A DNA stretch of 64,000 nt from Parcubacteria group bacterium. Its GTDB lineage: Bacteria; Patescibacteriota; Minisyncoccia; Moranbacterales; UBA2206. A program made the translations under genes and the position numbers. Shown here in pieces: positions 1-62,794 of this stretch. Each line of letters opens with the position of its first letter. The first letter of the stretch is position 1. The notes under the pieces are model-generated. The model was not told the DNA's origin, made no database searches, and saw only the letters and a program-made list of their open reading frames with translations. The stretch is taken from NCBI GenBank assembly GCA_041659505.1, contig JBAZYF010000003.1, positions 86,026 through 150,025 on the forward strand, read 5' to 3'.

Positions 1-342
1 TTGTATCGATTATGAACAAACATCAAATCCTCAACTATCCCTTTGAGAATTTTATTGTGCTTTTCATTCCAGCCTTTCAGCGCAATGCCCTCTCTTGCCA
101 ATTCTAAAATCGTTGCCATCTGGATGTGCAAATCGTTATTCTGCATTTGAAATTCCAATTGTTTTTTACGCTTCTGATTCATAGCCCTATGATTTTTTGG
201 ATACAAAAAAGGTCCTCCGTCGGCGGCACCGTTTCGGGCACCCAACACCCTTTCGAGTATTGACCCATGTGAACAGATACCGATCAGAAGACCGTTATTG
301 TTCACATGGGGTTTCATATATTTTGCCATGCCTACACCCGAA
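1..342 (-). CDS. hypothetical protein, 3' end cut off by the window edge. N-terminus is visible; the start is ATG at 182, 317 or 342
   Basis: Minus-strand frame is open from 342 through coordinate 1. It reads MPSGVGMAKYMKPHVNNNGLLIGICSHGS...MNQKRKKQLEFQMQNNDLHIQMATILELAREGIALKGWNEKHNKILKGIVEDLMFVHNRY. Segment 183-340 is GC-richer than 1-182, so the true start may be the ATG at 182. Confidence 0.25.
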
Positions 343-482
343 GGCATAAGTTTAGGCTGTATTGTAAATTTATTCTAGCTTTTTAAGTCGTGTTGGTCAA
401 TTTTCGGAAAGTTTTAGACACTCTTTTTAAATTTAGGCATACTAAAAACTAACTCCTATAAAAATAAGTTTTTATGCGTAAC

Positions 483-2503: not shown

Positions 2504-3386
2504 TTAAATAATATCTTATTGCACTATGCGCATATTTCTTGCCACTACTTTCAAGCTTATTCTCAAGATAATCTGCCATCTTATCTAACGCGGTCATAGG
2601 GTCACCATTATTCTCTCTTAAAAACCTACGACTAGTTTCCTTCAAAAACGCCACCTTTTTTGCTACCATTATCTTATCTGGACCAATTGCCTGTTCTGCT
2701 TCTTTTTGTGCACTTGCATACATTGCGCTATTTACTATTTCACTTTTAATTTGTACACAATAGCTACTAAAACGTTCGAGTTTTTTATCAGGATCAGGCA
2801 TGGTATTTTCAAACCCTTCATTGATAAAGTCCGCATTATCAGATACATAACAGATAAGATCCATTACGGTTTCAACTTCTGTCGCGTTGGAATTAATATT
2901 GGGAAGATTAAAGATTCTTTGCCGATCATTTTTGCTTAATTCAATAGCCTTTCTAACTATTTGTTCCAATCCCCAATGTTCCTTTTTTATTCCATCTCCA
3001 TTTCCATTTAATTCAATAATTTTTTGATGGGGCTTGCCCATTAAATTATCCCTTGTCACAAATACCCACTTATCAAACTGGTATTTATCTTTCCATTTTT
3101 CCAAAAATTTATCATAATCACCAAGCTCCTCTGATTTTTTAGGAATAGGATTTGAAATCTTCTTTGAAGTTATGCTATTATCGTATTTCTCTGATTCTGG
3201 ACCATACACGGCAAAAAAACATTTCTCATCTATACTGTACCCATCATTACCAAGATCATGTTGCATTTTAGGGGTTTGCAAATCCGGATAACAACAAATT
3301 AGGATATCCCACAAAATTTGCTGAAATTCCTTTCCTGTTTTTCTTGTCAATCGATCTCTTATTATTTCCTCAGAAGAATTAGCCAT
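2457..3386 (-). CDS. putative effector of the three-gene cassette with a PD-(D/E)xK-like motif
   Basis: First gene of the co-directional triad. Motif GNDGYSIDEKCFFAVYG resembles a restriction-endonuclease-fold D...(D/E)xK core. No other recognized family. Confidence 0.4.
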   Translation of the reverse strand: MANSSEEIIRDRLTRKTGKEFQQILWDILICCYPDLQTPKMQHDLGNDGYSIDEKCFFAVYGPESEKYDNSITSKKISNPIPKKSEELGDYDKFLEKWKDKYQFDKWVFVTRDNLMGKPHQKIIELNGNGDGIKKEHWGLEQIVRKAIELSKNDRQRIFNLPNINSNATEVETVMDLICYVSDNADFINEGFENTMPDPDKKLERFSSYCVQIKSEIVNSAMYASAQKEAEQAIGPDKIMVAKKVAFLKETSRRFLRENNGDPMTALDKMADYLENKLESSGKKYAHSAIRYYLIGEIPKCSIFPNEEE

Positions 3387-3494
3387 TTTTTATTTCGATA
3401 CTCAAGATTATATTTCATCTCAACTTTCTTGTTAAAATAATTATACCACATACTATCAGATTTGGTATCATTCATTCATTTTTAGCAAAATATC

Positions 3495-28452: not shown

Positions 28453-28619
28453 GCGTGTCATTCCCGCGAAGGCGGGAATCCAGGTACCACTAGTTATAAA
28501 TTATAAACAATCAAATTATAAATATTCTTGCCTTATGTTTCAGTCAGCCTTGCATTCAATAGCTCGTTTATCTATATACCAAGCCTGAGGTACCTGGATC
28601 CCCGCCTTCTCGGGGATGA
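28453..28619. repeat. 167-bp intergenic element bounded by 34-bp imperfect inverted repeats
   Basis: gtgtcattcccgcgaaggcgggaatccaggtacc at 28453-28486. Reverse-complement-like ggtacctggatccccgccttctcggggatgacac at 28586-28619. Each arm also folds locally. Confidence 0.6.
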
Positions 28620-28648
28620 CACAAGAAGAGAACCGAAATATAATCAGT

Positions 28649-31440: not shown

Positions 31441-31758
31441 TGAATTCCCTCCTGTTGTTTGTGATCCATCTTAGAGAAATTAAAGAACAAAAAACCCGCT
31501 GTTGGCGGGTTTTGGTTTATTTCGAAAGGATAACTTCATCGAACCATTTTCCTCTTCGCTTCAAGCCAAAATTCGCCAACATAAAGTCGGGACCCGGATC
31601 CGGAACATGTTGACCAAATATTGGTTTTGACTTGGCGATTTAGGCTCATAAAACTATCAAAATTATTTATAATAAAATATTACCACGCGACAATATTTTG
31701 TCAATAAAATATCTTACACCATTACTGAATCCTGTTCACTGATCAGTGTTCTCTGTTA

Positions 31759-31855
31759 TTCATTCCACCACCGCCTTAATCCTCCTCACACCCGCCGAAG
31801 AGCTTTCTTCTTTTTGGATGCGGAATTTGCCTTTGATTTCGGCGGTATTTTTGAT
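31759..31855. repeat. 97-bp direct repeat, copy 1: duplicate of the alaS 3' end
   Basis: Identical to 33315-33411, which is the alaS stop codon plus its last ~31 codons. Confidence 0.85.
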
Positions 31856-33285: not shown

Positions 33286-33314
33286 TTTTTTTATTTTAAT
33301 TTATTATTCACTTT

Positions 33315-33411
33315 TTCATTCCACCACCGCCTTAATCCTCCTCACACCCGCCGAAGAGCTTTCTTCTTTTTGGATGCGGAATTTGCCTTTGATTTCGGCG
33401 GTATTTTTGAT
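33315..33411. repeat. 97-bp direct repeat, copy 2 (authentic 3' end of alaS)
   Basis: See copy 1. Confidence 0.85.
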
Positions 33412-45929: not shown

Positions 45930-46056
45930 CAAAACTTGGAGAAAATCCAATTCTGGTTTATGATAAATAGCGAACGCTTAATTCATTGTACAAATATTTT
46001 CTAATAACAATTCGTATGTCCGGCATTCGTGACGCCGGTTCGCGAAGCGAATAACT

Positions 46057-48315
46057 ATGAAACTGATTATTGTTGAGTCGCCGACCAAGGCTAAAACTAT
46101 CACTAAATTTCTTGATAAAAGTTACACGGTCAAATCCAGCTATGGCCACATCCGCGATTTGCCGGTGAAAGAAATGGGCATTGATATCGAGCACGATTTT
46201 GCCCCGCAATATGTCATTCCCAACAAAGTCGCTGATCGCGTCGATGAGTTGAAAAAGCTGGCCAAAAAAGCCGAAAGTGTGATTCTGGCAACTGACGAAG
46301 ACCGCGAAGGAGAAGCTATTTCTTGGCACCTTGCCACGGCCTTGGAACTGGACAAGCATTTCAAGGGTGAAAAAATTGCCCGCATCGTCTTTCATGAAAT
46401 CACCAAAACCGCCATTGAAAAAGCGCTCGCCACACCACGTGAGATAGATTTAAACTTAGTCGATGCCCAACAGGCCCGGCGCATCCTTGATCGCCTGGTT
46501 GGTTATGAGCTCTCGCCTTTTCTTTGGAAAAAAATCCGCCGCGGACTGTCCGCCGGCCGCGTCCAATCGATGGCGCTGCGCATCATTGTCGAACGAGAAA
46601 AAGAAATCGATAAATTTAAAGCGGAAAATTATTGGAAAATAAATCTGACTTTGAAAACTAAGTCTGGCGGAAAGGATTCCGAATTCCCGGCCGAGTTGGT
46701 CAAAAAAAATGAAGAAAAGATTGAGGCCGTCACCACGCTGAAATTGTTCGCCGGTGATTATAAGATCAAAAAAACAATTCTCACGAAAGAAAAAGGCGCC
46801 CTAGATATTATCGCTGATCTAGAAAAATGTGACTACCAAGTTGAGGCACTGACCAAACGAGAAACAACCAAAACTCCGCCACCACCTTTCACAACATCCA
46901 CCTTGCAACAATCCGCTATTAGTAGTCTTGGTTACAGCTCCAAACAAACGATGACCTTAGCGCAAAAACTCTACGAGCAGGGCTTCATCACCTATATGCG
47001 TACAGACAGTCTCAATCTTTCCTTGGAGTCATTGCTCTCTGCTCAAAAAACGATCCATAAATTGTTCGGTAAAGATTTTGCGCTCAAAAGTCCGCGCTAT
47101 TTCAAAAATAAATCCAAAGGCGCACAAGAAGCCCACGAAGCCATTCGCCCGGCTTATCCGGAAAAAACGCCCGAAGAACTCAAGTCTAAACTCGAGCCAG
47201 GACAGTATAAACTATATAGACTGATCTGGAACCGAATGATCGCTTCCCAGATGGAATGCGCCGTTTTCAACTCTGTCAAAGTCGATATTTCCGCTAAAAG
47301 TAAAGCCAGCAAAAATGTCTATGCGCTGAGCGCCAGCGGATCGACCTTGACTTTTGAGGGCTATCTGAAAGTCTATGCCGATAAAAAATCGGCGACAACC
47401 GACACGCTTTTGCCTCCAATGGAAAAAGGCGACGCACTGGAGCTGGCATCTGCCACATCCGAAGGCAAAACAACCACCCAACCTCCACGCTACAATGAGG
47501 CAACGCTTGTGAAAGTGCTGGAAGAAAATGGCATCGGCCGACCATCTACCTATGCGCCAACCATCTCCACAATCATTGATAGAAAATATATCGATAAAAA
47601 CGAAGAGAAGCGACTCTTTCCAGAAGAAATCGGCACATTAGTCAGCGATCTTCTAGTCGCCCACTTTCCTCAAATCGTCGACATGACTTTCACCGCCACA
47701 CTTGAAAAAGATTTCGACGAAATCGCCGAGGGCGCCAAAAAATGGGTGCCGGTCATCAGGGAATTCTATGAACCGTTCCATAAAAATCTCCAAACCAAAA
47801 CTAAGGAAGTGAAAAAAGAAGAGTTTCAAGAAAAGCTGGACAAGAGTTGCCCGGATTGCGGCGGAGATCTGATCATGAAATTTGGCCGCTTCGGAAAATT
47901 TATCGCTTGTTCCAATTATCCCAATTGCCGTTACACAGAAAAAACTGGGGCGGAAAAAAAGATTGAGGAAGAATTTTCCGGAGAGATCTGTGAAAAATGC
48001 GGCGCTAAGATGGCAGTGAAACGGGGAAAATTCGGTGTCTTTCTAGGTTGTTCCAACTATCCGACTTGCAAAAATATCAAACGGATTGAAAACAAAACCG
48101 GCGTCAAATGCCCCAAATGCAAGGTTGGCGATATCGTCGAACGCAAATCCAAAAAAGGCCGTGCCTTTTTCGGCTGCAGCACCTACCCGGCATGCGATTT
48201 CTCCCTTTGGAACAAACCGACCGGAGAAGTTTGTCCTACCTGTGGATCACTCTTAGTTTTCGCCGCCAAAGGCAAAACCAAATGTTCCAACAAGGAATGT
48301 AATTTTGAGAAATAG
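46057..48315 (+). CDS. topA: DNA topoisomerase I
   Basis: TOPRIM (MKLIIVESPTKA...ATDEDREGE). Active-site region. Three C-terminal C4 zinc ribbons. Confidence 0.95.
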   Translation: MKLIIVESPTKAKTITKFLDKSYTVKSSYGHIRDLPVKEMGIDIEHDFAPQYVIPNKVADRVDELKKLAKKAESVILATDEDREGEAISWHLATALELDKHFKGEKIARIVFHEITKTAIEKALATPREIDLNLVDAQQARRILDRLVGYELSPFLWKKIRRGLSAGRVQSMALRIIVEREKEIDKFKAENYWKINLTLKTKSGGKDSEFPAELVKKNEEKIEAVTTLKLFAGDYKIKKTILTKEKGALDIIADLEKCDYQVEALTKRETTKTPPPPFTTSTLQQSAISSLGYSSKQTMTLAQKLYEQGFITYMRTDSLNLSLESLLSAQKTIHKLFGKDFALKSPRYFKNKSKGAQEAHEAIRPAYPEKTPEELKSKLEPGQYKLYRLIWNRMIASQMECAVFNSVKVDISAKSKASKNVYALSASGSTLTFEGYLKVYADKKSATTDTLLPPMEKGDALELASATSEGKTTTQPPRYNEATLVKVLEENGIGRPSTYAPTISTIIDRKYIDKNEEKRLFPEEIGTLVSDLLVAHFPQIVDMTFTATLEKDFDEIAEGAKKWVPVIREFYEPFHKNLQTKTKEVKKEEFQEKLDKSCPDCGGDLIMKFGRFGKFIACSNYPNCRYTEKTGAEKKIEEEFSGEICEKCGAKMAVKRGKFGVFLGCSNYPTCKNIKRIENKTGVKCPKCKVGDIVERKSKKGRAFFGCSTYPACDFSLWNKPTGEVCPTCGSLLVFAAKGKTKCSNKECNFEK

Positions 48316-48324
48316 CATCCATAT

Positions 48325-48480
48325 CCCCTTCGCCCTTAGGGAGAAGGTGCCCGAAGGGCGGATGAGGGAAAGGGCATTACATTAAGATAAAACTAACTTT
48401 ATTTAGATTTTATCCTAACCCAAAGCCCTTGCCCTCACCTGTCACGTGCTCGTGACATCCTCTCCCGAAGGGCGAGGAGG
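48325..48480. repeat. ~155-bp palindromic intergenic element (family copy A) with ~50-nt imperfect terminal inverted repeats
   Basis: Left arm ccccttcgcccttagggagaaggtgcccgaagggcggatgagggaaagggc. Right arm is its imperfect reverse complement. Near-identical arms recur at 61604-61758. Confidence 0.7.
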
Positions 48481-48499
48481 CGTTAAAAAGAATAATTTT

Positions 48500-49996
48500 A
48501 TGTCTATCGAAGCAAAAATTACCATTGAAGATGTCCTGCGTAACGTCAAGTTCAATCTGGAATTCAAAAAAGAAGCTCTGATCCGCAGTGCTTATGCTGT
48601 CGCGGAGAAAGCCCACTTGGGCCAAAAACGCAAATCCGGCAAAGACGACTATATCCAGCATCCTTTGCATACCGCGCTCAATCTGGCGCGTATCGGCTTG
48701 GGTTCCAAAACGATTGCCGCGGGACTTTTGCATGATGTGCCGGAAGATACAACTGTCACGCTCAAGGAGCTGGAACTAAAATTTGGCAAAGAAATTGCCT
48801 GCATGGTTGATGGTGTCACTAAACTGGGTAAGATAAAATTGCGCGGAGCGAAAGAAGATAATTATTTGGAAAATCTGCGCAAGATGTTTTTGGCCATGGC
48901 CTCAGACATCCGCGTCGTTCTCATCAAATTAGCCGACCGTCTGCACAATATGGAAACGCTAGAATATCTTCCGCCTGAAAAACAACAGCGCATCGCGCTG
49001 GAAACGATGGAAGTTTTTGCCCCGATCGCTAATCGCCTGGGAATCGGAGAGATCAAGGTTCGCTTGGAAGATTTATCGTTCAAATATCTCGATCCGGAAA
49101 ATTTCGCCGCGACGGAAAAATTAGTCATGGCGGAATATGGCCAAAGAAAAAAATTCATCGACAAGATGGTCATTGAACTGAAAAAGGAATTGACCAAGGA
49201 AGGGATCAACGTGCTGGAAATTTTCGGACGCACCAAGCACATCTACAGCCTCTACCAGAAATTAAAACGCCACGATATGGACATCAGCAAGGTCTATGAC
49301 CTCCTGGGCATCCGCATCATTGTGTCAGAACTGGCCAACTGTTATGAAACGCTCGGCATCGTGCACAAAAAATATCGTCCACTGGTCGGCCGAATTAAGG
49401 ACTACGTCTCACTGCCTAAACCCAATGGCTACCAATCGATCCACACCACGATTTTTGGACCAGAAGGCATCTTTCTGGAAGTCCAGATCCGCACCAAAAA
49501 AATGGACGACGAGGCGGAATTTGGCATTGCCTCGCACTGGATCTATTCGGAGAAAAAAAGAAAACTGAAAAATTTCTTTATGAAAAGTAAATATGCCGTG
49601 CCGGACGAAGAATTAGCCTGGGTCAATCAGTTGCGCGAATGGCAAAATGATCTTGGCAAGGATGACGCCGAGTTCATGGAAAGTCTCAAGATTGATTTTT
49701 TCAAAAATCATATTTTTGCGTTCACTCCGCAGGGAGATATAATCGACCTGCCGGAAGATGCCACGCCGATCGATTTCGCCTACCGCATCCACGGCGAAGT
49801 CGGCAACCGCGCGAATGGCGCCAAAGCCAATGGCAAGATGGTTACTTTGGATTATAAAATCCAAAACGGCGAAGTGATCGAGATTCTCACCACCCGAGAT
49901 CAAAAAAACCCCAGCCGCGACTGGCTGAAGTTTGTCCGCACGTCTCTGGCAAAAAGTCAGATTAAGAAATATTTGAAGAAAGAAGGGTTGTTATAA
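48500..49996 (+). CDS. rel: RelA/SpoT-family (p)ppGpp synthetase/hydrolase, short form (HD + synthetase + TGS, no ACT)
   Basis: HD motif (LLHDVPED). Synthetase motifs (EVQIRT). TGS domain. Start moved to ATG 48500 because the upstream ORF extension runs through the repeat element. Confidence 0.85.
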   Translation: MSIEAKITIEDVLRNVKFNLEFKKEALIRSAYAVAEKAHLGQKRKSGKDDYIQHPLHTALNLARIGLGSKTIAAGLLHDVPEDTTVTLKELELKFGKEIACMVDGVTKLGKIKLRGAKEDNYLENLRKMFLAMASDIRVVLIKLADRLHNMETLEYLPPEKQQRIALETMEVFAPIANRLGIGEIKVRLEDLSFKYLDPENFAATEKLVMAEYGQRKKFIDKMVIELKKELTKEGINVLEIFGRTKHIYSLYQKLKRHDMDISKVYDLLGIRIIVSELANCYETLGIVHKKYRPLVGRIKDYVSLPKPNGYQSIHTTIFGPEGIFLEVQIRTKKMDDEAEFGIASHWIYSEKKRKLKNFFMKSKYAVPDEELAWVNQLREWQNDLGKDDAEFMESLKIDFFKNHIFAFTPQGDIIDLPEDATPIDFAYRIHGEVGNRANGAKANGKMVTLDYKIQNGEVIEILTTRDQKNPSRDWLKFVRTSLAKSQIKKYLKKEGLL

Positions 49997-54673: not shown

Positions 54674-54786
54674 TAAGTGGTTATTCGCTTCGCGAACCCG
54701 TATTGCGAAAACGGGACATGCGAATAATCTTTGTATAATGAAATTATACTACAATTTTTGCATAAGTCCAAATAGCGCGAAAACCG

Positions 54787-54868
54787 CGCCGATGTGGTGA
54801 AATTGGCAAACACGCACGACTCAAAATCGTGTACCGCAAGGTTTGTGGGTTCAAGTCCCACCATCGGC
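54787..54868 (+). tRNA. tRNA-Leu (anticodon CAA), class II with long variable arm. CCA not encoded
   Basis: Acceptor GCCGATG/CATCGGC. D-arm TGGTGAAATTGGCAAACAC. Anticodon stem-loop CACGA-CTCAAAA-TCGTG. 13-nt variable arm. T-arm GTGGG-TTCAAGT-CCCAC. Closely parallels E. coli tRNA-Leu. Confidence 0.8.
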
Positions 54869-54928
54869 ACAAAAAATATTCTTGTCGCAGGAACGAGCTA
54901 GCAAATTAGTGTCGCCCGCCTTTTGGCA

Positions 54929-54951
54929 GGAACGGGTTTGTAACCCGTTCC
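54929..54951. repeat. REP-like hairpin copy 1 (ggaacgggtt-NNN-aacccgttcc)
   Basis: Perfect 10-bp stem; also at 55504-55526 and 56613-56635. Confidence 0.7.
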
Positions 54952-54990: not shown

Positions 54991-55494
54991 ATGCCTTCGG
55001 TAAAAATACACAAAGAGTTTAGCTCAGGAACTTATTTCCTCACTTTTAGTGTTAAAAATCTTTATTACTTCTTCGATCAATATTATCGGTGGAATATCCT
55101 AGCTGATTCGCTAAAATATTGCCAAAAAGAAAAGCAACTAAAGATCTATGCTTTTGTGTTTATGCTAAATCATCTCCATCTAATAGCTAGCTCACCAGAT
55201 GTTTCTGGTTTTGTTTGCGATTTCAAAAAATTTACTTCAAAAGAATTTCACAGAAACATTGAAAGCACAGAACCCAATGTGCTGAAATTATTTTTAGACG
55301 CCGATGGAAAATATGAATTTTGGGAAAAAACCAATATGCCGAAAATAATCGAAACCGAGGAATTTTATTTGCAAAAAGTAAATTACATCCACAACAATCC
55401 AGTGAAGAAAAATTATGTCACTGAACCGGAGCACTGGCATTGGTCGAGCGCAAATCCGCACTGTGAAATTACGCCTAATAAAATTTATAGCTAG
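54991..55494 (+). mobile_element. IS200/IS605-type Y1 HUH transposase (RAYT-like)
   Basis: HuH motif MLNHLHLIA. Conserved downstream Tyr region (YIHNNPVKKNYV). Flanked by REP-like hairpins. Confidence 0.6.
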
Positions 55495-55552
55495 TAAACT
55501 AAAAGGAACGGGTTGCAAACCCGTTCCTGCTGTTGGATGCGACAATAATTCC
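55493..55552. repeat. REP-like element copy 2 (~60 nt, direct orientation relative to copy 3)
   Basis: aaactaaaaggaacgggttgcaaacccgttcctgctgttggatgcgacaataatt against copy 3 at 56602-56661 (~8 mismatches). Confidence 0.65.
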
Positions 55553-56601: not shown

Positions 56602-56661
56602 ACAAACTAAAAGGAACGGGTTACAAACCCGTTCCTGCAATTAGATGCGGTAATAAATTTC
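56602..56661. repeat. REP-like element copy 3
   Basis: See copy 2. Confidence 0.65.
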
Positions 56662-60125: not shown

Positions 60126-61601
60126 ATGGCGATAAAAAAAATATTGATAAAACTGATTCTTTGGTCTATCATACTTCTCCTTCTCGGCGCAATCGCCTAT
60201 GGAGCTTTTTTCTTGCACAAACTGAATTCTCTTAGCAACAAGATAAACGTCTACCAAAAACCGGAAAATCTATTCGACACACTCACCTCTGTCGCTCAAA
60301 TTGCCAAAAATGAACCGCTGGAGTTAAAAAATAGCAATGGTGAAAGAATCAATATTTTACTCTTGGGCGTAGCGGGAGACGGAAAACCAGGAAGAAATCT
60401 GACGGACACAATCATGATTGCTAGTTTGAATCTCAAAACTAACCAAGTTGCATTGCTTTCACTTCCGCGTGACCTCTATGTCAAAGTGCCCGCGTCCGAT
60501 TGGCAGACAAAAATCAATGCCATCTACCAGGCGGGACTCAATAATGAAAAAGATCAGAGCAAAGCAATCGATCCACTACTTGAAACAATCACTACTGTCA
60601 CTTCTTTAGATATTCACTATTATGCCGTACTTAATTTTGACGGTTTTCGGCAAGTACTCGATGCGATTGGCGGAGTAAATATCACAAATGTTAGAGACAT
60701 CTATGACGAGCGCTATCCCGGACCGAACTATAGCTATGAGACATTTGATCTCAAAAAGGGTTTTCAACATCTTGACGGAGACATGGCCTTGAAATATGCT
60801 CGCGAACGCCACGATGACCCAGAGGGTGATTTTGGCCGTGCCAAAAGGCAACAACAAATCATCCAAGTGACAAAAAATAAAATCTTTTCCGCCACCACCC
60901 TTTTTGACATCTCTTCCTTGAACAAGCTCTTCGACGCGCTGGGGAACAATATCAAGACCAATCTGTCATCGGATGAAATAGGCAGTTTTTTTGAGCTGAG
61001 CAAAAAATTAGACACCAATAACATCATCAATTCTACTGTCGATGCCTGGAATAAAGACAGCTTGCTCAAAGTCTCACATGTTTATTATGGCGATATTGCC
61101 GCCTTTGTCCTAATCCCCCGCGTCGGCAATTATAGTGAAATCCAAGAGTTGGCGCAAAACATTTTTGACTTGAATAAACTCAAAAGACGCCGCGAAGAAA
61201 TTAGCGGGGAAAACGCTTTGGTTGCGCTCATTAACAAAAGCGGAGATAATACTATCGTAACCAAGATCCAAAAATTACTCAGCGAAAATCTGGTCTACAA
61301 AAACGTAATTATTATCACCGATCCAGGAAAAGATCAGGAAAAGACGACAAACGTCTATGACTCCAACTCAGGGACCAAGCCATTCACGCTTGACGAATTA
61401 GCTACTCGCCTTCCCGCTAAGGTTTTCTATGCCTTGCCGGATAAATACCAAAAAATAGTTGAAAAAAAATCACCGGACATCGTCCTAGTCATCGGCAAGG
61501 ATCTGATTGAAAAATACAACGTGCCGGAAGACTCGATCGAAGATTTCAAAAAAGCCCAAGATGATCAAGATCTGATAAATATGCAAAATAAATCTAACTA
61601 A
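60126..61601 (+). CDS. LytR-CpsA-Psr (LCP) family protein
   Basis: N-terminal TM. LCP core NILLLGVAGDG...DTIMIASL...LLSLPRD. Confidence 0.8.
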   Translation: MAIKKILIKLILWSIILLLLGAIAYGAFFLHKLNSLSNKINVYQKPENLFDTLTSVAQIAKNEPLELKNSNGERINILLLGVAGDGKPGRNLTDTIMIASLNLKTNQVALLSLPRDLYVKVPASDWQTKINAIYQAGLNNEKDQSKAIDPLLETITTVTSLDIHYYAVLNFDGFRQVLDAIGGVNITNVRDIYDERYPGPNYSYETFDLKKGFQHLDGDMALKYARERHDDPEGDFGRAKRQQQIIQVTKNKIFSATTLFDISSLNKLFDALGNNIKTNLSSDEIGSFFELSKKLDTNNIINSTVDAWNKDSLLKVSHVYYGDIAAFVLIPRVGNYSEIQELAQNIFDLNKLKRRREEISGENALVALINKSGDNTIVTKIQKLLSENLVYKNVIIITDPGKDQEKTTNVYDSNSGTKPFTLDELATRLPAKVFYALPDKYQKIVEKKSPDIVLVIGKDLIEKYNVPEDSIEDFKKAQDDQDLINMQNKSN

Positions 61602-61603
61602 TT

Positions 61604-61758
61604 CCCCTTCGCCCTTAGGGAGAAGGTGGTCGAAGGCCGGATGAGGGAAAGGGCTTTTGATAAAATTATTACTTTCCTACGCAGAACATTTTTATTTTTT
61701 TAGCATTACCCTTGCCCTCACCTGTCCTTCGGACATCCTCTCTCGAAGGGCGAAGAGG
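61604..61758. repeat. ~155-bp palindromic intergenic element (family copy B)
   Basis: Arms 48/51 identical to copy A. The central ~60 nt are unrelated. Confidence 0.7.
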
Positions 61759-61794: not shown

Positions 61795-62340
61795 ATGAAA
61801 CTAATCATCGGCTTGGGTAATCCCGGCCAAAAATATGTCGCGACGCGGCACAATCTGGGATTTATTTTTCTCAATAAGTTGCGGGAAAGATGGTCATTGC
61901 CAAATTTTAGACTAGAAGCCAAATTTTCTGCTGAAATTTCCCATGGCGAACTAAATGGTCAAAAAATAATCTTAGCCAAACCGCAAAACTTTATGAATCT
62001 GTCCGGCGAAGCTGTGCAAAAAATTCTGGCTTTTTACAAACTTAGTCCCGAAGATCTTTTGGTCATCCATGATGATATCGACATCTTAGCCGGAAGATAT
62101 AAGCTGGCTAGTGATTCAACTTCCGCCGGACATAACGGCGTGCAAAATATCATCGAGCTTTTAGGCACAAAAAAATTCGCTCGTCTGCGAATCGGAATTA
62201 AGAATGAAAATAAAGATGAGACTGAAAACCAGATGGAAGTCAGTGATTTTGTCTTGGGAAAATTGACTGCGCTTGAGCTAGAAAAAATTAATGCGCAAGA
62301 AAAATCAATCCTGGAAGAAATAGAAAAATTTATTTCTTAA
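61795..62340 (+). CDS. pth: peptidyl-tRNA hydrolase
   Basis: MKLIIGLGNPG..Y..TRHN.GF. Confidence 0.9.
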   Translation: MKLIIGLGNPGQKYVATRHNLGFIFLNKLRERWSLPNFRLEAKFSAEISHGELNGQKIILAKPQNFMNLSGEAVQKILAFYKLSPEDLLVIHDDIDILAGRYKLASDSTSAGHNGVQNIIELLGTKKFARLRIGIKNENKDETENQMEVSDFVLGKLTALELEKINAQEKSILEEIEKFIS

Positions 62341-62342
62341 AA

Positions 62343-62486
62343 AACTTACGCTTGTCCAAAAAATAATTTTATCTATAGCCCGGACTAACCAAATAAAACC
62401 CCAGGAGTCAGACCAACTAAAAATAACAAAATAAAGCAATAAGAGGCCTCGCGCCTTGAAAATTATTTTTTGGACAAGCGTAAGTT
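62343..62486. repeat. 144-bp element with 28-bp perfect inverted-repeat arms immediately downstream of pth
   Basis: aacttacgcttgtccaaaaaataatttt at 62343-62370. Exact reverse complement at 62459-62486. Confidence 0.65.
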
Positions 62487-62747
62487 GCATCCTTGTTGTT
62501 TTTCAAAGTTTCGCACGTAAGATTGCATCTCTCTCGGAATTATCCTGGAAAAATACGTTTGACTTACTCGCGAAAACTAAGGAGGGTGTTTCCGCTTTCA
62601 AACTTACGCACGAAACCCTGAAAACCAATTTGCAAAATATCGAATTTTCAAAAAATACACCAACTTGATAGTATAGCACCAAATAGGACTTTTGTCAAAC
62701 AAAAAAAGCTAGAATGGCTTAATAAAAGCTTTTTTTGGTCAAAAAAC

Positions 62748-62778
62748 CGCCAAAATTACATCTGGCGGTTTTTCACAT
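62748..62778 (-). terminator. Rho-independent terminator after the kinase-like gene
   Basis: Minus strand: aaccgcca-gatgtaatt-ttggcggtt then TTTT. Confidence 0.45.
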
Positions 62779-62794
62779 TTTCAACTATAAAAGA

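What the first reader, a model, noticed from the sequence alone, without database searches (positions are those of the whole stretch)
48325..48480. Palindromic ~155-bp intergenic repeat family, copy A (after topA)
~50-nt imperfect terminal inverted repeats (ccccttcgcccttagggagaagg...gatgagggaaagggc and its complement). Each encloses a small GC hairpin (gtcacgtgctcgtgac here). The arms are 48/51 identical to those at 61604-61758, while the centres differ: arm conservation with a free core is the pattern of MITEs or structured terminator or attenuator modules. Both copies sit just 3' of plus-strand genes and 5' of the next gene (rel here), so they would be transcribed.
Basis: seen in the sequence. 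Interest (0 to 1): 0.55.

Follow-up and report, generated by a model that had tools for sequence, protein, structure and literature searches.

The report
Mobile palindromic intergenic repeat, CPR bacterium
The 156-bp palindrome between topA and rel is one copy of a small non-coding mobile repeat family in Moraniibacteria (tiny "candidate phyla radiation" bacteria); its 50-nt arm also occurs in Rhizobium and Xanthomonas, and it is not a terminator.

Summary
Window 48325-48480 (copy A) and 61604-61758 (copy B) are two copies of a 155-190 bp palindromic repeat. GC-rich arms (0.63-0.66 GC) flank an AT-rich core (0.20 GC). I found 32 full copies in Candidatus Moraniibacteriota genomes and metagenomes, all intergenic.

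Both window copies are derived insertions. Five related genomes have topA and rel only 11-23 nt apart, and five have lytR and pth only 4-10 nt apart. No target-site duplication is visible.

The element is a mosaic of small hairpin modules. The inner hairpins vary in sequence and length but stay paired. The cores are not free; they fall into two conserved subtypes.

The 50-nt arm recurs at 84-91% identity, with the same architecture, in Rhizobium, Shinella and Xanthomonas replicons.

In 26 of 32 copies the same element strand lies on the C-rich replication strand. This suggests a single-strand, replication-linked step.

There is no U-tract terminator, no promoter and no Rfam match. A RAYT transposase gene lies in the window (54991-55494), but it is flanked by a different hairpin family.

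Verdict: a new member of the known REP/BIME/RIME-like class of mosaic palindromic repeats, with an unknown mobiliser. Interest is moderate.

The parts
48325..48347 (+). Copy A, outer hairpin module HP1-L (CCCCTTCGCCC-TTA-GGGAGAAGG)
   Evidence: Sequence read. The module is conserved in all 32 copies and in the Rhizobium and Xanthomonas relatives.
48349..48359 (+). Copy A, small variable hairpin HP2-L (GCCC-GAA-GGGC)
   Evidence: Compensatory pair changes across copies: GC 20 / CG 7, CG 24 / UA 2, CG 29 / UA 2.
48360..48375 (+). Copy A, inner arm block S3-L (GGATGAGGGAAAGGGC), which pairs with 48425-48440
   Evidence: Most of its positions are invariant across the 32 copies.
48376..48424 (+). 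Copy A, AT-rich core of subtype I (GC 0.20), itself a hairpin
   Evidence: The same core subtype occurs in L002a, L003, L013, L093, L100 and L106.
48425..48440 (+). Copy A, inner arm block S3-R (GCCCTTGCCCTCACCT)
48441..48456 (+). Copy A, small hairpin HP2-R (GTCACG-TGCT-CGTGAC)
   Evidence: Other copies carry GTCATG..CATGAC, GTCC-TTC-GGAC or GTCCCGACG-TAGC-GTCGGGAC at this position; all are perfect hairpins.
48459..48480 (+). Copy A, outer hairpin module HP1-R (CCTCTCCC-GAA-GGGCGAGGAGG)
61604..61758 (+). Copy B of the same family (core subtype II, short HP2-R), inserted between lytR (60126-61601) and pth (61795-62340)
   Evidence: This junction is empty in L052, L171, L172, L173 and the P0003 locus.
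46057..48315 (+). topA, the gene upstream of copy A; its stop codon lies 9 nt before the element
   Evidence: Pfam Topoisom_bac, Toprim and Zn_ribbon_Top1.
48500..49996 (+). rel (RelA/SpoT family), the gene downstream of copy A; its start codon lies 19 nt after the element
   Evidence: Pfam HD_4, RelA_SpoT and TGS.

Best explanation
Copy A is a non-autonomous, mobile, mosaic palindromic repeat. It resembles REPINs, E. coli BIMEs and rhizobial RIMEs. It inserted, without a target-site duplication, into the originally 11-23 nt spacer between topA and rel in a Candidatus Moraniibacteriota (Patescibacteria/CPR) genome.

Each arm is an array of small hairpin modules: HP1, an optional extra hairpin, GGTG, a variable GC hairpin, then GGATGAGGG-AAGGG. 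The two arms are inverted around an AT-rich core that comes in two subtypes. Modules are reassorted between copies.

Shown: the element is repeated, intergenic, gained and lost at orthologous sites, and far more conserved than synonymous sites. Its small hairpins are kept paired through compensatory changes. Its orientation follows the replication strand rather than the neighbouring genes.

Inferred: the arms are kept intact because a trans-acting enzyme recognises them as folded single strands at the replication fork. That enzyme may be HUH-like, but it has not been identified. The one RAYT gene in the window has its own, different hairpins.

Inferred: when transcribed within the topA-rel message, the element forms a very stable four-way hairpin that RNA polymerase reads through. 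It may affect mRNA processing or stability, but it does not terminate transcription.
For: Family: the arm pattern found 14 loci, 12 titled Candidatus Moraniibacteriota and 2 untitled as to phylum, and about 19 metagenome loci are true members. An nhmmer profile finds 32 full copies, each scoring two to three times higher in one orientation.

Context: all copies are intergenic, mostly 0-45 nt from the flanking genes. Co-directional contexts number 19-20, convergent 8 and divergent 1.

Insertion: the topA-rel spacer is 11-23 nt in L174-L178 and is filled only in the window and L011. The lytR-pth spacer is 4-10 nt in five relatives. L052 carries a copy at a site where the window has an ordinary terminator-like hairpin. 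Short-read contigs L168 and L169 begin inside copy B. No duplicated flank is visible.

Constraint: the R arm is 54/55 identical between the window and L011, while third codon positions of topA are only 49% identical.

Mosaic build and hairpin covariation.

Orientation: in 26 of 32 copies the L-to-R strand is the C-rich strand (p = 5e-4). After correcting for gene strand the count is 16 of 18 (p = 0.001). The bias holds both for copies sense (7/8) and antisense (8/12) to their adjacent genes.

Stability. No promoter or terminator. No Rfam family.

Cross-phylum arm: 63 plasmid or chromid records match (49 Rhizobium; also Shinella, Sinorhizobium, Xanthomonas) at 84-91% over about 50 nt. The same architecture is seen in L165 and L166.
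Against: No transposase or autonomous parent carrying these arms was found in about 1.3 Mb of held sequence. Two RAYT genes in family-bearing genomes are flanked by other hairpins. No near-identical strain pair was available, so the empty and filled sites differ by more than the element and the exact insertion point is approximate. The high arm conservation could instead reflect a host function. The orientation test uses 2-14 kb flanks, and some copies are not independent. No expression data were available.
Confidence: 0.78

Rival explanations
1. It is a host-selected structured RNA module. Transcribed between operon genes, the hairpin would protect the upstream message from 3' exonucleases or provide an RNase III site, as shown for E. 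coli REP/BIME and Neisseria Correia elements. On this view the arms are conserved for that function. This is compatible with a mobile origin.
For: Copies lie at gene 3' ends, between co-directional or convergent genes. The RNA fold is very stable. The small hairpins are kept paired by compensatory change. Arms are conserved far above synonymous sites. In L052 the element sits where the window has a terminator-like hairpin.
Against: The element is present or absent at the same junction among equally related genomes, so no locus needs it. Orientation tracks the replication strand rather than the direction of transcription. The long arm-arm helix shows no covariation at its one informative position: GC 8, UA 6, unpaired 18. 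There is no Rfam match.
Confidence: 0.25
2. It is a REPIN in the strict sense: an inverted REP doublet mobilised by a cognate RAYT (REP-associated tyrosine transposase).
For: The element is an inverted doublet of hairpin units with a spacer, and no target-site duplication is seen. It shows replication-strand bias. A bona fide RAYT gene lies in the window at 54991-55494 (NCBIfam NF047646, 90.6 bits against a cut-off of 80). RAYT homologues are common in Moraniibacteria.
Against: The window's RAYT is flanked by GGAACGGGTT..AACCCGTTCC hairpins. The JAPLXG genome's RAYT is flanked by GCAGGAGC..GCTCCTGC hairpins. Neither is flanked by these arms. No RAYT lies next to any of the 32 copies. No GTAG or CGTC tag is evident.
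Confidence: 0.15
3. It is a classical MITE: a deletion derivative of a DDE-transposase insertion sequence, moved by cut-and-paste through its terminal inverted repeats.
For: It has terminal inverted repeats of about 50 nt. It is small, multi-copy and non-coding, with insertion polymorphism.
Against: No target-site duplication is seen at any of 32 copies or at the filled-versus-empty comparisons. No element with these ends encloses an ORF. Replication-strand bias is not expected for double-strand cut-and-paste. A conserved flank occurs on one side only.
Confidence: 0.12
4. It is an intrinsic terminator or attenuator between topA and rel.
For: It is a strong GC-rich hairpin directly after a stop codon.
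Against: No T-run follows the hairpin in either direction: GGAGG is followed by CGTTAAAAAG on one strand and GGGG by ATATGGATG on the other. rel starts 19 nt after the element, and no promoter-like site lies between or inside. Relatives keep topA and rel 11-23 nt apart, which implies co-transcription.
Confidence: 0.04

Closest known systems
REPINs and REP doublets (Pseudomonas, E. coli), described in PMC3116915 and PMC3733652
   Same: Both are inverted pairs of short hairpin units separated by a spacer. Both are intergenic and found mainly between co-directional and convergent genes. Both have many copies, no coding capacity, can fold into a long hairpin, and lack a target-site duplication.
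   Different: The units here are about 50 nt and hold two or three hairpins each, compared with 20-40 nt for REPs. No GTAG or CGTC tag is present. The RAYT genes of two host genomes are flanked by other hairpins. Like the CGTC REPs of PMC3733652, this family has no dedicated transposase in view.
BIMEs of E. coli and RIMEs, Sm-repeats and 'AB, C palindromes' of Sinorhizobium and Rhizobium (cited in PMC2573895 as repeats of unknown function)
   Same: Both are mosaics of palindromic modules with optional inserts and variable centres. The arm itself recurs at 84-91% identity in Rhizobium, Shinella and Sinorhizobium replicons, with the same arm-core-arm layout.
   Different: I could not check whether the rhizobial counterpart is the element named RIME1, RIME2 or motif A/B/C, because the original paper (PMC177356) is not held. 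The host here is a CPR bacterium with about 40% GC, the cores are AT-rich, and there is no match in E. coli.
Correia elements (CREE) of Neisseria
   Same: Both are about 100-155 bp inverted-repeat elements within transcription units that form long RNA hairpins. From my own knowledge, Correia hairpins are RNase III substrates and alter expression of neighbouring genes.
   Different: Correia elements have 26-bp terminal inverted repeats and a TA duplication. Here no duplication is seen and the arm sequences are unrelated. No sequence comparison was run.
IS200/IS605 family and its miniature derivatives
   Same: Both lack a target-site duplication, have subterminal hairpins, carry a conserved sequence abutting one end only, and show orientation bias relative to replication.
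   Different: IS200/IS605 ends are not inverted repeats of each other, whereas here the two arms are true inverted copies. No tnpA or tnpB gene is linked.

Membership tests
MITE (derivative of a DDE insertion sequence) | Terminal inverted repeats | tested here: met
   The left arm matches the reverse complement of the right arm at 41/56 (A) and 39/51 (B).
MITE (derivative of a DDE insertion sequence) | Target-site duplication flanking each copy | tested here: not met
   No shared flank is seen at 32 copies. The filled and empty topA-rel junctions show no duplication.
MITE (derivative of a DDE insertion sequence) | Multiple dispersed copies with presence/absence polymorphism | tested here: met
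MITE (derivative of a DDE insertion sequence) | A full-length insertion sequence with the same ends | tested here: inconclusive
   None was found in about 1.3 Mb of held loci. Whole genomes could not be scanned.
REP / REPIN (RAYT-associated) | Inverted doublet of palindromic units with a spacer, located in intergenic DNA | tested here: met
REP / REPIN (RAYT-associated) | The same units flank a RAYT gene in the genome | tested here: not met
   The window RAYT (54991-55494) and the JAPLXG RAYT (L179:2501-3007) are flanked by other hairpin families. Only two RAYT loci were seen, so a second RAYT elsewhere in these genomes is not excluded.
REP / REPIN (RAYT-associated) | A conserved unpaired GTAG or CGTC tag at one end of the unit (PMC3733652) | tested here: not met
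   The arms start with CCCCTTC or CCTCCTC. No such tag appears at conserved positions of alignment A4.
BIME / RIME-type mosaic element | Combination of palindromic units with optional and alternative internal motifs | tested here: met
   Optional CCTGCC..GGCAGG modules, four HP2-R variants, two core subtypes that are reassorted, and copies with an extra half-arm.
BIME / RIME-type mosaic element | Sequence identity to the published RIME1, RIME2 or A/B/C motifs | not testable with these tools
   No reference sequence is held. Only similarity to unannotated rhizobial intergenic DNA could be shown.
Intrinsic terminator | GC-rich hairpin followed by a T-run | tested here: not met
   The scans found no terminator-like site formed by the element at either window copy or at L003. 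The one hit near L106 is a separate hairpin outside the element's left end.
Any curated RNA family (Rfam 15) | Match at the gathering score | tested here: not met
   Only LOOT RNA and a tRNA matched elsewhere in the window. At the elements only weak microRNA-precursor models matched, which reflects the long hairpin. Nothing matched on the GC-rich relatives.
IS200/IS605-derived miniature element | Strand bias relative to replication and no target-site duplication | tested here: met
IS200/IS605-derived miniature element | Ends that are not inverted repeats, and a linked or related tnpA/tnpB | tested here: not met
   The arms are true inverted repeats.

The most novel reading that the evidence does not exclude
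The 50-nt module (CCTTCTCCC-loop-GGGAGAAGG, TG, variable GC hairpin, CGGATGAGGG) may be a pan-bacterial 'orphan' palindromic unit. On this reading it has crossed between Proteobacteria and CPR bacteria and spreads through a single-stranded, replication-fork-linked step. The catalyst would be an enzyme that is not encoded next to it, either a host function or an unrecognised transposase. Moraniibacteria genomes are very small, so the set of candidate mobilisers is small. The old question of how transposase-less REP-like repeats move (raised for CGTC REPs in PMC3733652) could then be addressed by phylogenetic profiling.
Probability: 0.2. Interest if true: 0.7.

Novelty: new member of a known kind. 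Interest (0 to 1): 0.45.

Why it matters
Streamlined CPR genomes are usually described as poor in mobile DNA. This window nevertheless carries at least three palindromic repeat families and a RAYT transposase, and they insert between tightly packed housekeeping genes. The family studied here shows three features that are unusual together: an arm shared across phyla, insertion without duplication, and an orientation tied to the replication strand with no transposase in view. If these hold genome-wide, the small gene content of these bacteria offers a tractable place to find what mobilises 'orphan' REP-like repeats. On the practical side, these repeats break short-read assemblies and create spurious ORF extensions, such as the 516-aa GTG version of rel that starts inside the element.

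Tried and rejected
- **Rfam.** I ran it at gathering and at permissive thresholds on both copies and on the GC-rich relatives. Only spurious microRNA-precursor hits appeared.
- **Promoter and terminator scans.** Four copies were scanned and nothing was found in the element. An outward -10 reading of the conserved left flank (ATATAAAT on the other strand) has no -35 or TG support, so I dropped it.
- **Target-site duplication.** None was found.
- **Long-range arm pairing versus local hairpins.** Both models pair about 90% of cells (89.7% and 91.9%), and the only informative position shows no covariation. The question stays undecided.
- **RAYT link.** The window's RAYT and one from a second genome that carries the family have their own hairpins, so the link was rejected for those two loci.
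- **Phages, E. coli genomes and viral contigs.** No family member was found. A recalled resemblance to the E. coli REP stem (GCCGGATG) is therefore not supported at this sensitivity.
- **Hammerhead, k-turn and KOPS-like readings of GGATGAGGG.** I considered these by eye and dropped them because key consensus positions differ.
- **Literature.** A search for the arm strings returned only unrelated primer hits. The RIME paper is not held. No paper links Patescibacteria with MITEs or REPs.
- **Integron attC.** Rejected, because the flanking genes are core housekeeping genes and the R'/R'' core sites are absent.

Full report
**1. Observation**

- The left arms are 48/51 identical.
- The right arms share 48 identical bases over 56 aligned columns. 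All the indels fall in the small inner hairpin.
- Within a copy, the left arm matches the reverse complement of the right arm at 41/56 (A) and 39/51 (B).
- The arms have GC 0.63-0.66 and the cores 0.20-0.21, in a window of about 0.40 GC.
- The arm pattern has no match in 100 shuffles of the window.
- The whole element folds far better than shuffled sequence: RNA -79.4 kcal/mol, z -7.6 for A; RNA -71.8 kcal/mol, z -6.7 for B; ssDNA -46.6 kcal/mol, z -8.1.
- Single arms alone are unremarkable, with z from 0.06 to -2.6.

The flanking genes are topA and rel for copy A, and a LytR_cpsA_psr gene and pth for copy B.

**2. A family, and its host**

A degenerate arm pattern found 14 loci in the species-representative genome collection. 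Twelve are titled Candidatus Moraniibacteriota and two are named only as uncultured bacteria. A looser pattern scan of metagenomes gave many chance hits, but about 19 loci hold true members. None of the viral-contig hits is a member.

The window's own Pth protein is named 'MAG Parcubacteria group bacterium' and lies on a 248,828-bp contig.

A profile built from 14 copies finds 32 full-length copies. Each scores two to three times better in one orientation, so the element is asymmetric and its orientation can be defined as L to R. Only two copies lie in the window.

**3. Anatomy**

The alignment of the 32 copies (A4) shows a mosaic, in this order:
- HP1-L: CCCCTTC(G/T)CCC, loop, GGGAGAAGG.
- An optional extra hairpin: CCTGCC..GGCAGG, or a longer one.
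- GGTG.
- HP2-L, a GC hairpin that varies in sequence and length.
- GGATGAGGG(A/C)AAGGG.
- The core.
- CCCTTGCCCTCACCTG.
- HP2-R, with four variants (GTCACG-TGCT-CGTGAC, GTCATG-AGTA-CATGAC, GTCC-TTC-GGAC, GTCCCGACG-TAGC-GTCGGGAC).
- CATC.
- An optional extra hairpin.
- HP1-R.

The cores are not free. They fall into an A-type that is itself palindromic and a B-type, both conserved across genomes. Core subtype and HP2-R variant are reassorted between copies. In L010 and L072b the core is flipped relative to the arms. Copies with an extra half-arm exist in L100 and L106, and a core-less copy exists in L061.

**4. Structure and covariation**

RNAalifold predicts an outer arm-arm helix, the two small hairpins and the inner helix. 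Compensatory changes are confined to the small hairpins:
- HP2-L: GC 20 / CG 7, CG 24 / UA 2, CG 29 / UA 2.
- HP2-R: AU 22 / CG 3, CG 23 / UA 3.

A model with long-range pairing of the outer modules pairs 89.7% of cells. A model with local outer hairpins pairs 91.9%. The one informative long-range position shows GC 8, UA 6 and 18 unpaired, so there is no covariation.

The small hairpins are therefore under constraint to stay hairpins. Whether the constraint acts on RNA or on single-stranded DNA cannot be told from these data.

**5. Mobility**

*topA-rel junction.* Five related genomes (Rel 83-91% identical) have a spacer of only 11-23 nt. Only the window and L011 are filled.
- TopA identities among the window, L011, L174 and L175 are all 88-90%, which is a star-like pattern. 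Third codon positions are only 49-58% identical.
- Yet the right arms of the window and L011 copies are 54/55 identical.
- Their cores belong to different subtypes, and L011 carries a 35-nt extra module.
- This fits independent insertions at one site, or conversion from other copies. It does not fit neutral descent.

*lytR-pth junction.* The spacer is 4-10 nt in L052, L171, L172, L173 and the P0003 locus. In the JAPLXG genome the same junction holds a different palindromic element. L052 has a copy of this family at a site where the window has an ordinary terminator-like hairpin.

Short-read contigs L168 and L169 begin inside copy B. No target-site duplication is visible at any copy or at the filled-versus-empty comparisons.

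Most Moraniibacteria copies carry a conserved TTTATTTATAT directly 5' of the left end. The window copies have it truncated (A) or absent (B). In at least four loci (L014, L027, L052, L106) this motif is continuous with the T-tract of a neighbouring terminator-like hairpin.

**6. Context and orientation**

All 32 copies are intergenic, mostly 0-45 nt from the flanking genes. The counts are 12 co-directional antisense, 7-8 co-directional sense, 8 convergent and 1 divergent. The review of REPs reports the same bias (PMC3733652).

Orientation does not follow the neighbouring genes, but it does follow GC skew.
- In 26 of 32 copies the L-to-R strand is the C-rich strand (p = 5e-4).
- After averaging the skew over genes on each strand, the count is 16 of 18 (p = 0.001), or 14 of 16 when one copy per locus is used (p = 0.004).
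- The bias holds for copies sense (7/8) and antisense (8/12) to their adjacent genes.

I read this as a replication-linked, strand-specific step in insertion or retention. That is an inference.

**7. Not a terminator, promoter or known RNA**

No T-run follows the hairpin in either direction, and no sigma-70-like promoter lies in or beside the window copies. Two other copies gave the same result. Rfam has no family for the element.

**8. Beyond CPR**

The window's left arm matches 63 records in the plasmid collection: 49 Rhizobium, with the rest from Shinella, Sinorhizobium, Nitratireductor, Pararhizobium, Xanthomonas and Aeromonas. Identity is 84-91% over about 50 nt, and all the listed matches lie in unannotated intergenic DNA.
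- In Rhizobium sp. CB3090 the match lies between the ccmF and ccmH genes. It has the same layout of arm, core and inverted arm.
- The same layout is seen in Xanthomonas sacchari. That copy matches the Moraniibacteria profile over nearly its full length (E = 1e-13).
- GC-rich versions occur in unrelated metagenome contigs.
- The shared unit is the outer hairpin, TG, a variable GC hairpin and CGGATGAGGG.
- No match exists in phage records or in E. coli genomes.

Rhizobial genomes are known to carry RIMEs, Sm-repeats and 'AB, C palindromes' of unknown function (PMC2573895). I could not verify which of these names, if any, applies, because the original paper is not held.

**9. The RAYT gene**

The ORF at 54991-55494 is a REP-associated tyrosine transposase by two libraries: NCBIfam NF047646 at 90.6 bits against a cut-off of 80, and Pfam Y1_Tnp at 25.2 bits against a cut-off of 23.

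It follows tRNA-Leu and is flanked by inverted GGAACGGGTT..AACCCGTTCC hairpins, which are a different family. A 66%-identical RAYT in the JAPLXG genome, which also carries the family studied here, is flanked by GCAGGAGC..GCTCCTGC hairpins. No RAYT lies next to any of the 32 copies.

The strict REPIN reading therefore fails its defining test at the two loci I could examine.

**10. Verdict**

The element is a new member of the known class of mosaic palindromic intergenic repeats. It is mobile or recently mobile, and its mobiliser is unidentified. It is transcribed as a read-through hairpin rather than acting as a terminator.

The cross-phylum arm and the replication-strand bias are the points worth following up.

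Noticed in passing
window 54991-55494 (+), with hairpins at 54929-54951, 55505-55527 and 56613-56635: A REP-associated tyrosine transposase (RAYT) gene lies directly after tRNA-Leu(CAA) at 54788-54870 (NCBIfam NF047646, 90.6 bits; HUH motif HLH; YIHNNPV). It is flanked by inverted GGAACGGGTT-NNN-AACCCGTTCC hairpins, and a third copy lies 1.1 kb downstream. The region is about 1.1 kb shorter in the syntenic L052. Homologues at 60-69% identity occur in Patescibacteria, Nitrospirae, anammox Planctomycetes and Methylobacter.
   Followed up: partly
window 28455-28622: Another arm-core-arm palindrome, with arms GTGTCATTCCCGCGAAGGCGGGAATCCAGGTACC around a 100-nt AT-rich core. Each arm fits the CGTC-1 REP type of PMC3733652 (TGTC tag, stem starting with AT, CCA tail), arranged as a head-to-head dimer.
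   Followed up: partly
L170:2812-2950 (JAPLXG010000014.1): The same lytR-pth junction that holds copy B in the window is occupied here by an unrelated palindromic element (TGTCATCCTGAGCGGAG ... CTCAGGATGACA). This suggests the junction is an insertion hotspot or one of few permissive sites.
   Followed up: partly
window 225-358 (-): A match to Rfam LOOT RNA (RF03000) at 71.1 bits, against a gathering score of 46.4.
   Followed up: no
window 62343-62790: Downstream of pth there is a perfect 28-nt inverted repeat (62343-62370 / 62459-62486). It is followed by non-coding sequence that is 83% conserved with L052 (62492-62737). A strong promoter-like site (TTGACA, 17 nt, TATACT, preceded by TG) at 62698-62670 on the minus strand points into that sequence. 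A terminator-like hairpin lies at about 62741-62773. This could be a small RNA gene; Rfam has no match.
   Followed up: partly
window 46010-46055 and 54680-54725: A 46-nt inverted repeat pair, 80% complementary and 8.6 kb apart. One copy lies just upstream of topA and the other just upstream of tRNA-Leu, and each contains small hairpins.
   Followed up: no
window 31756-31855 and 33312-33411: A 100-nt direct repeat, 99% identical, spaced 1556 nt apart.
   Followed up: no
window 48446-49996 (+): The mechanical ORF list gives a 516-aa GTG-start version of rel that begins inside the right arm of copy A. Homologues are 498 aa, so ATG at 48500 is the likely start.
   Followed up: yes
L046:7357-7512, L085:154-295, L094:8641-8759, L108:8462-8574, L111:81-206, L117:83-139, L121:823-930, L118:1803-1955, L084:643-705 and 3376-3436: GC-rich versions of the same arm, often as inverted pairs, lie in metagenome contigs that are clearly not Moraniibacteria. 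I did not determine their taxonomy.
   Followed up: partly
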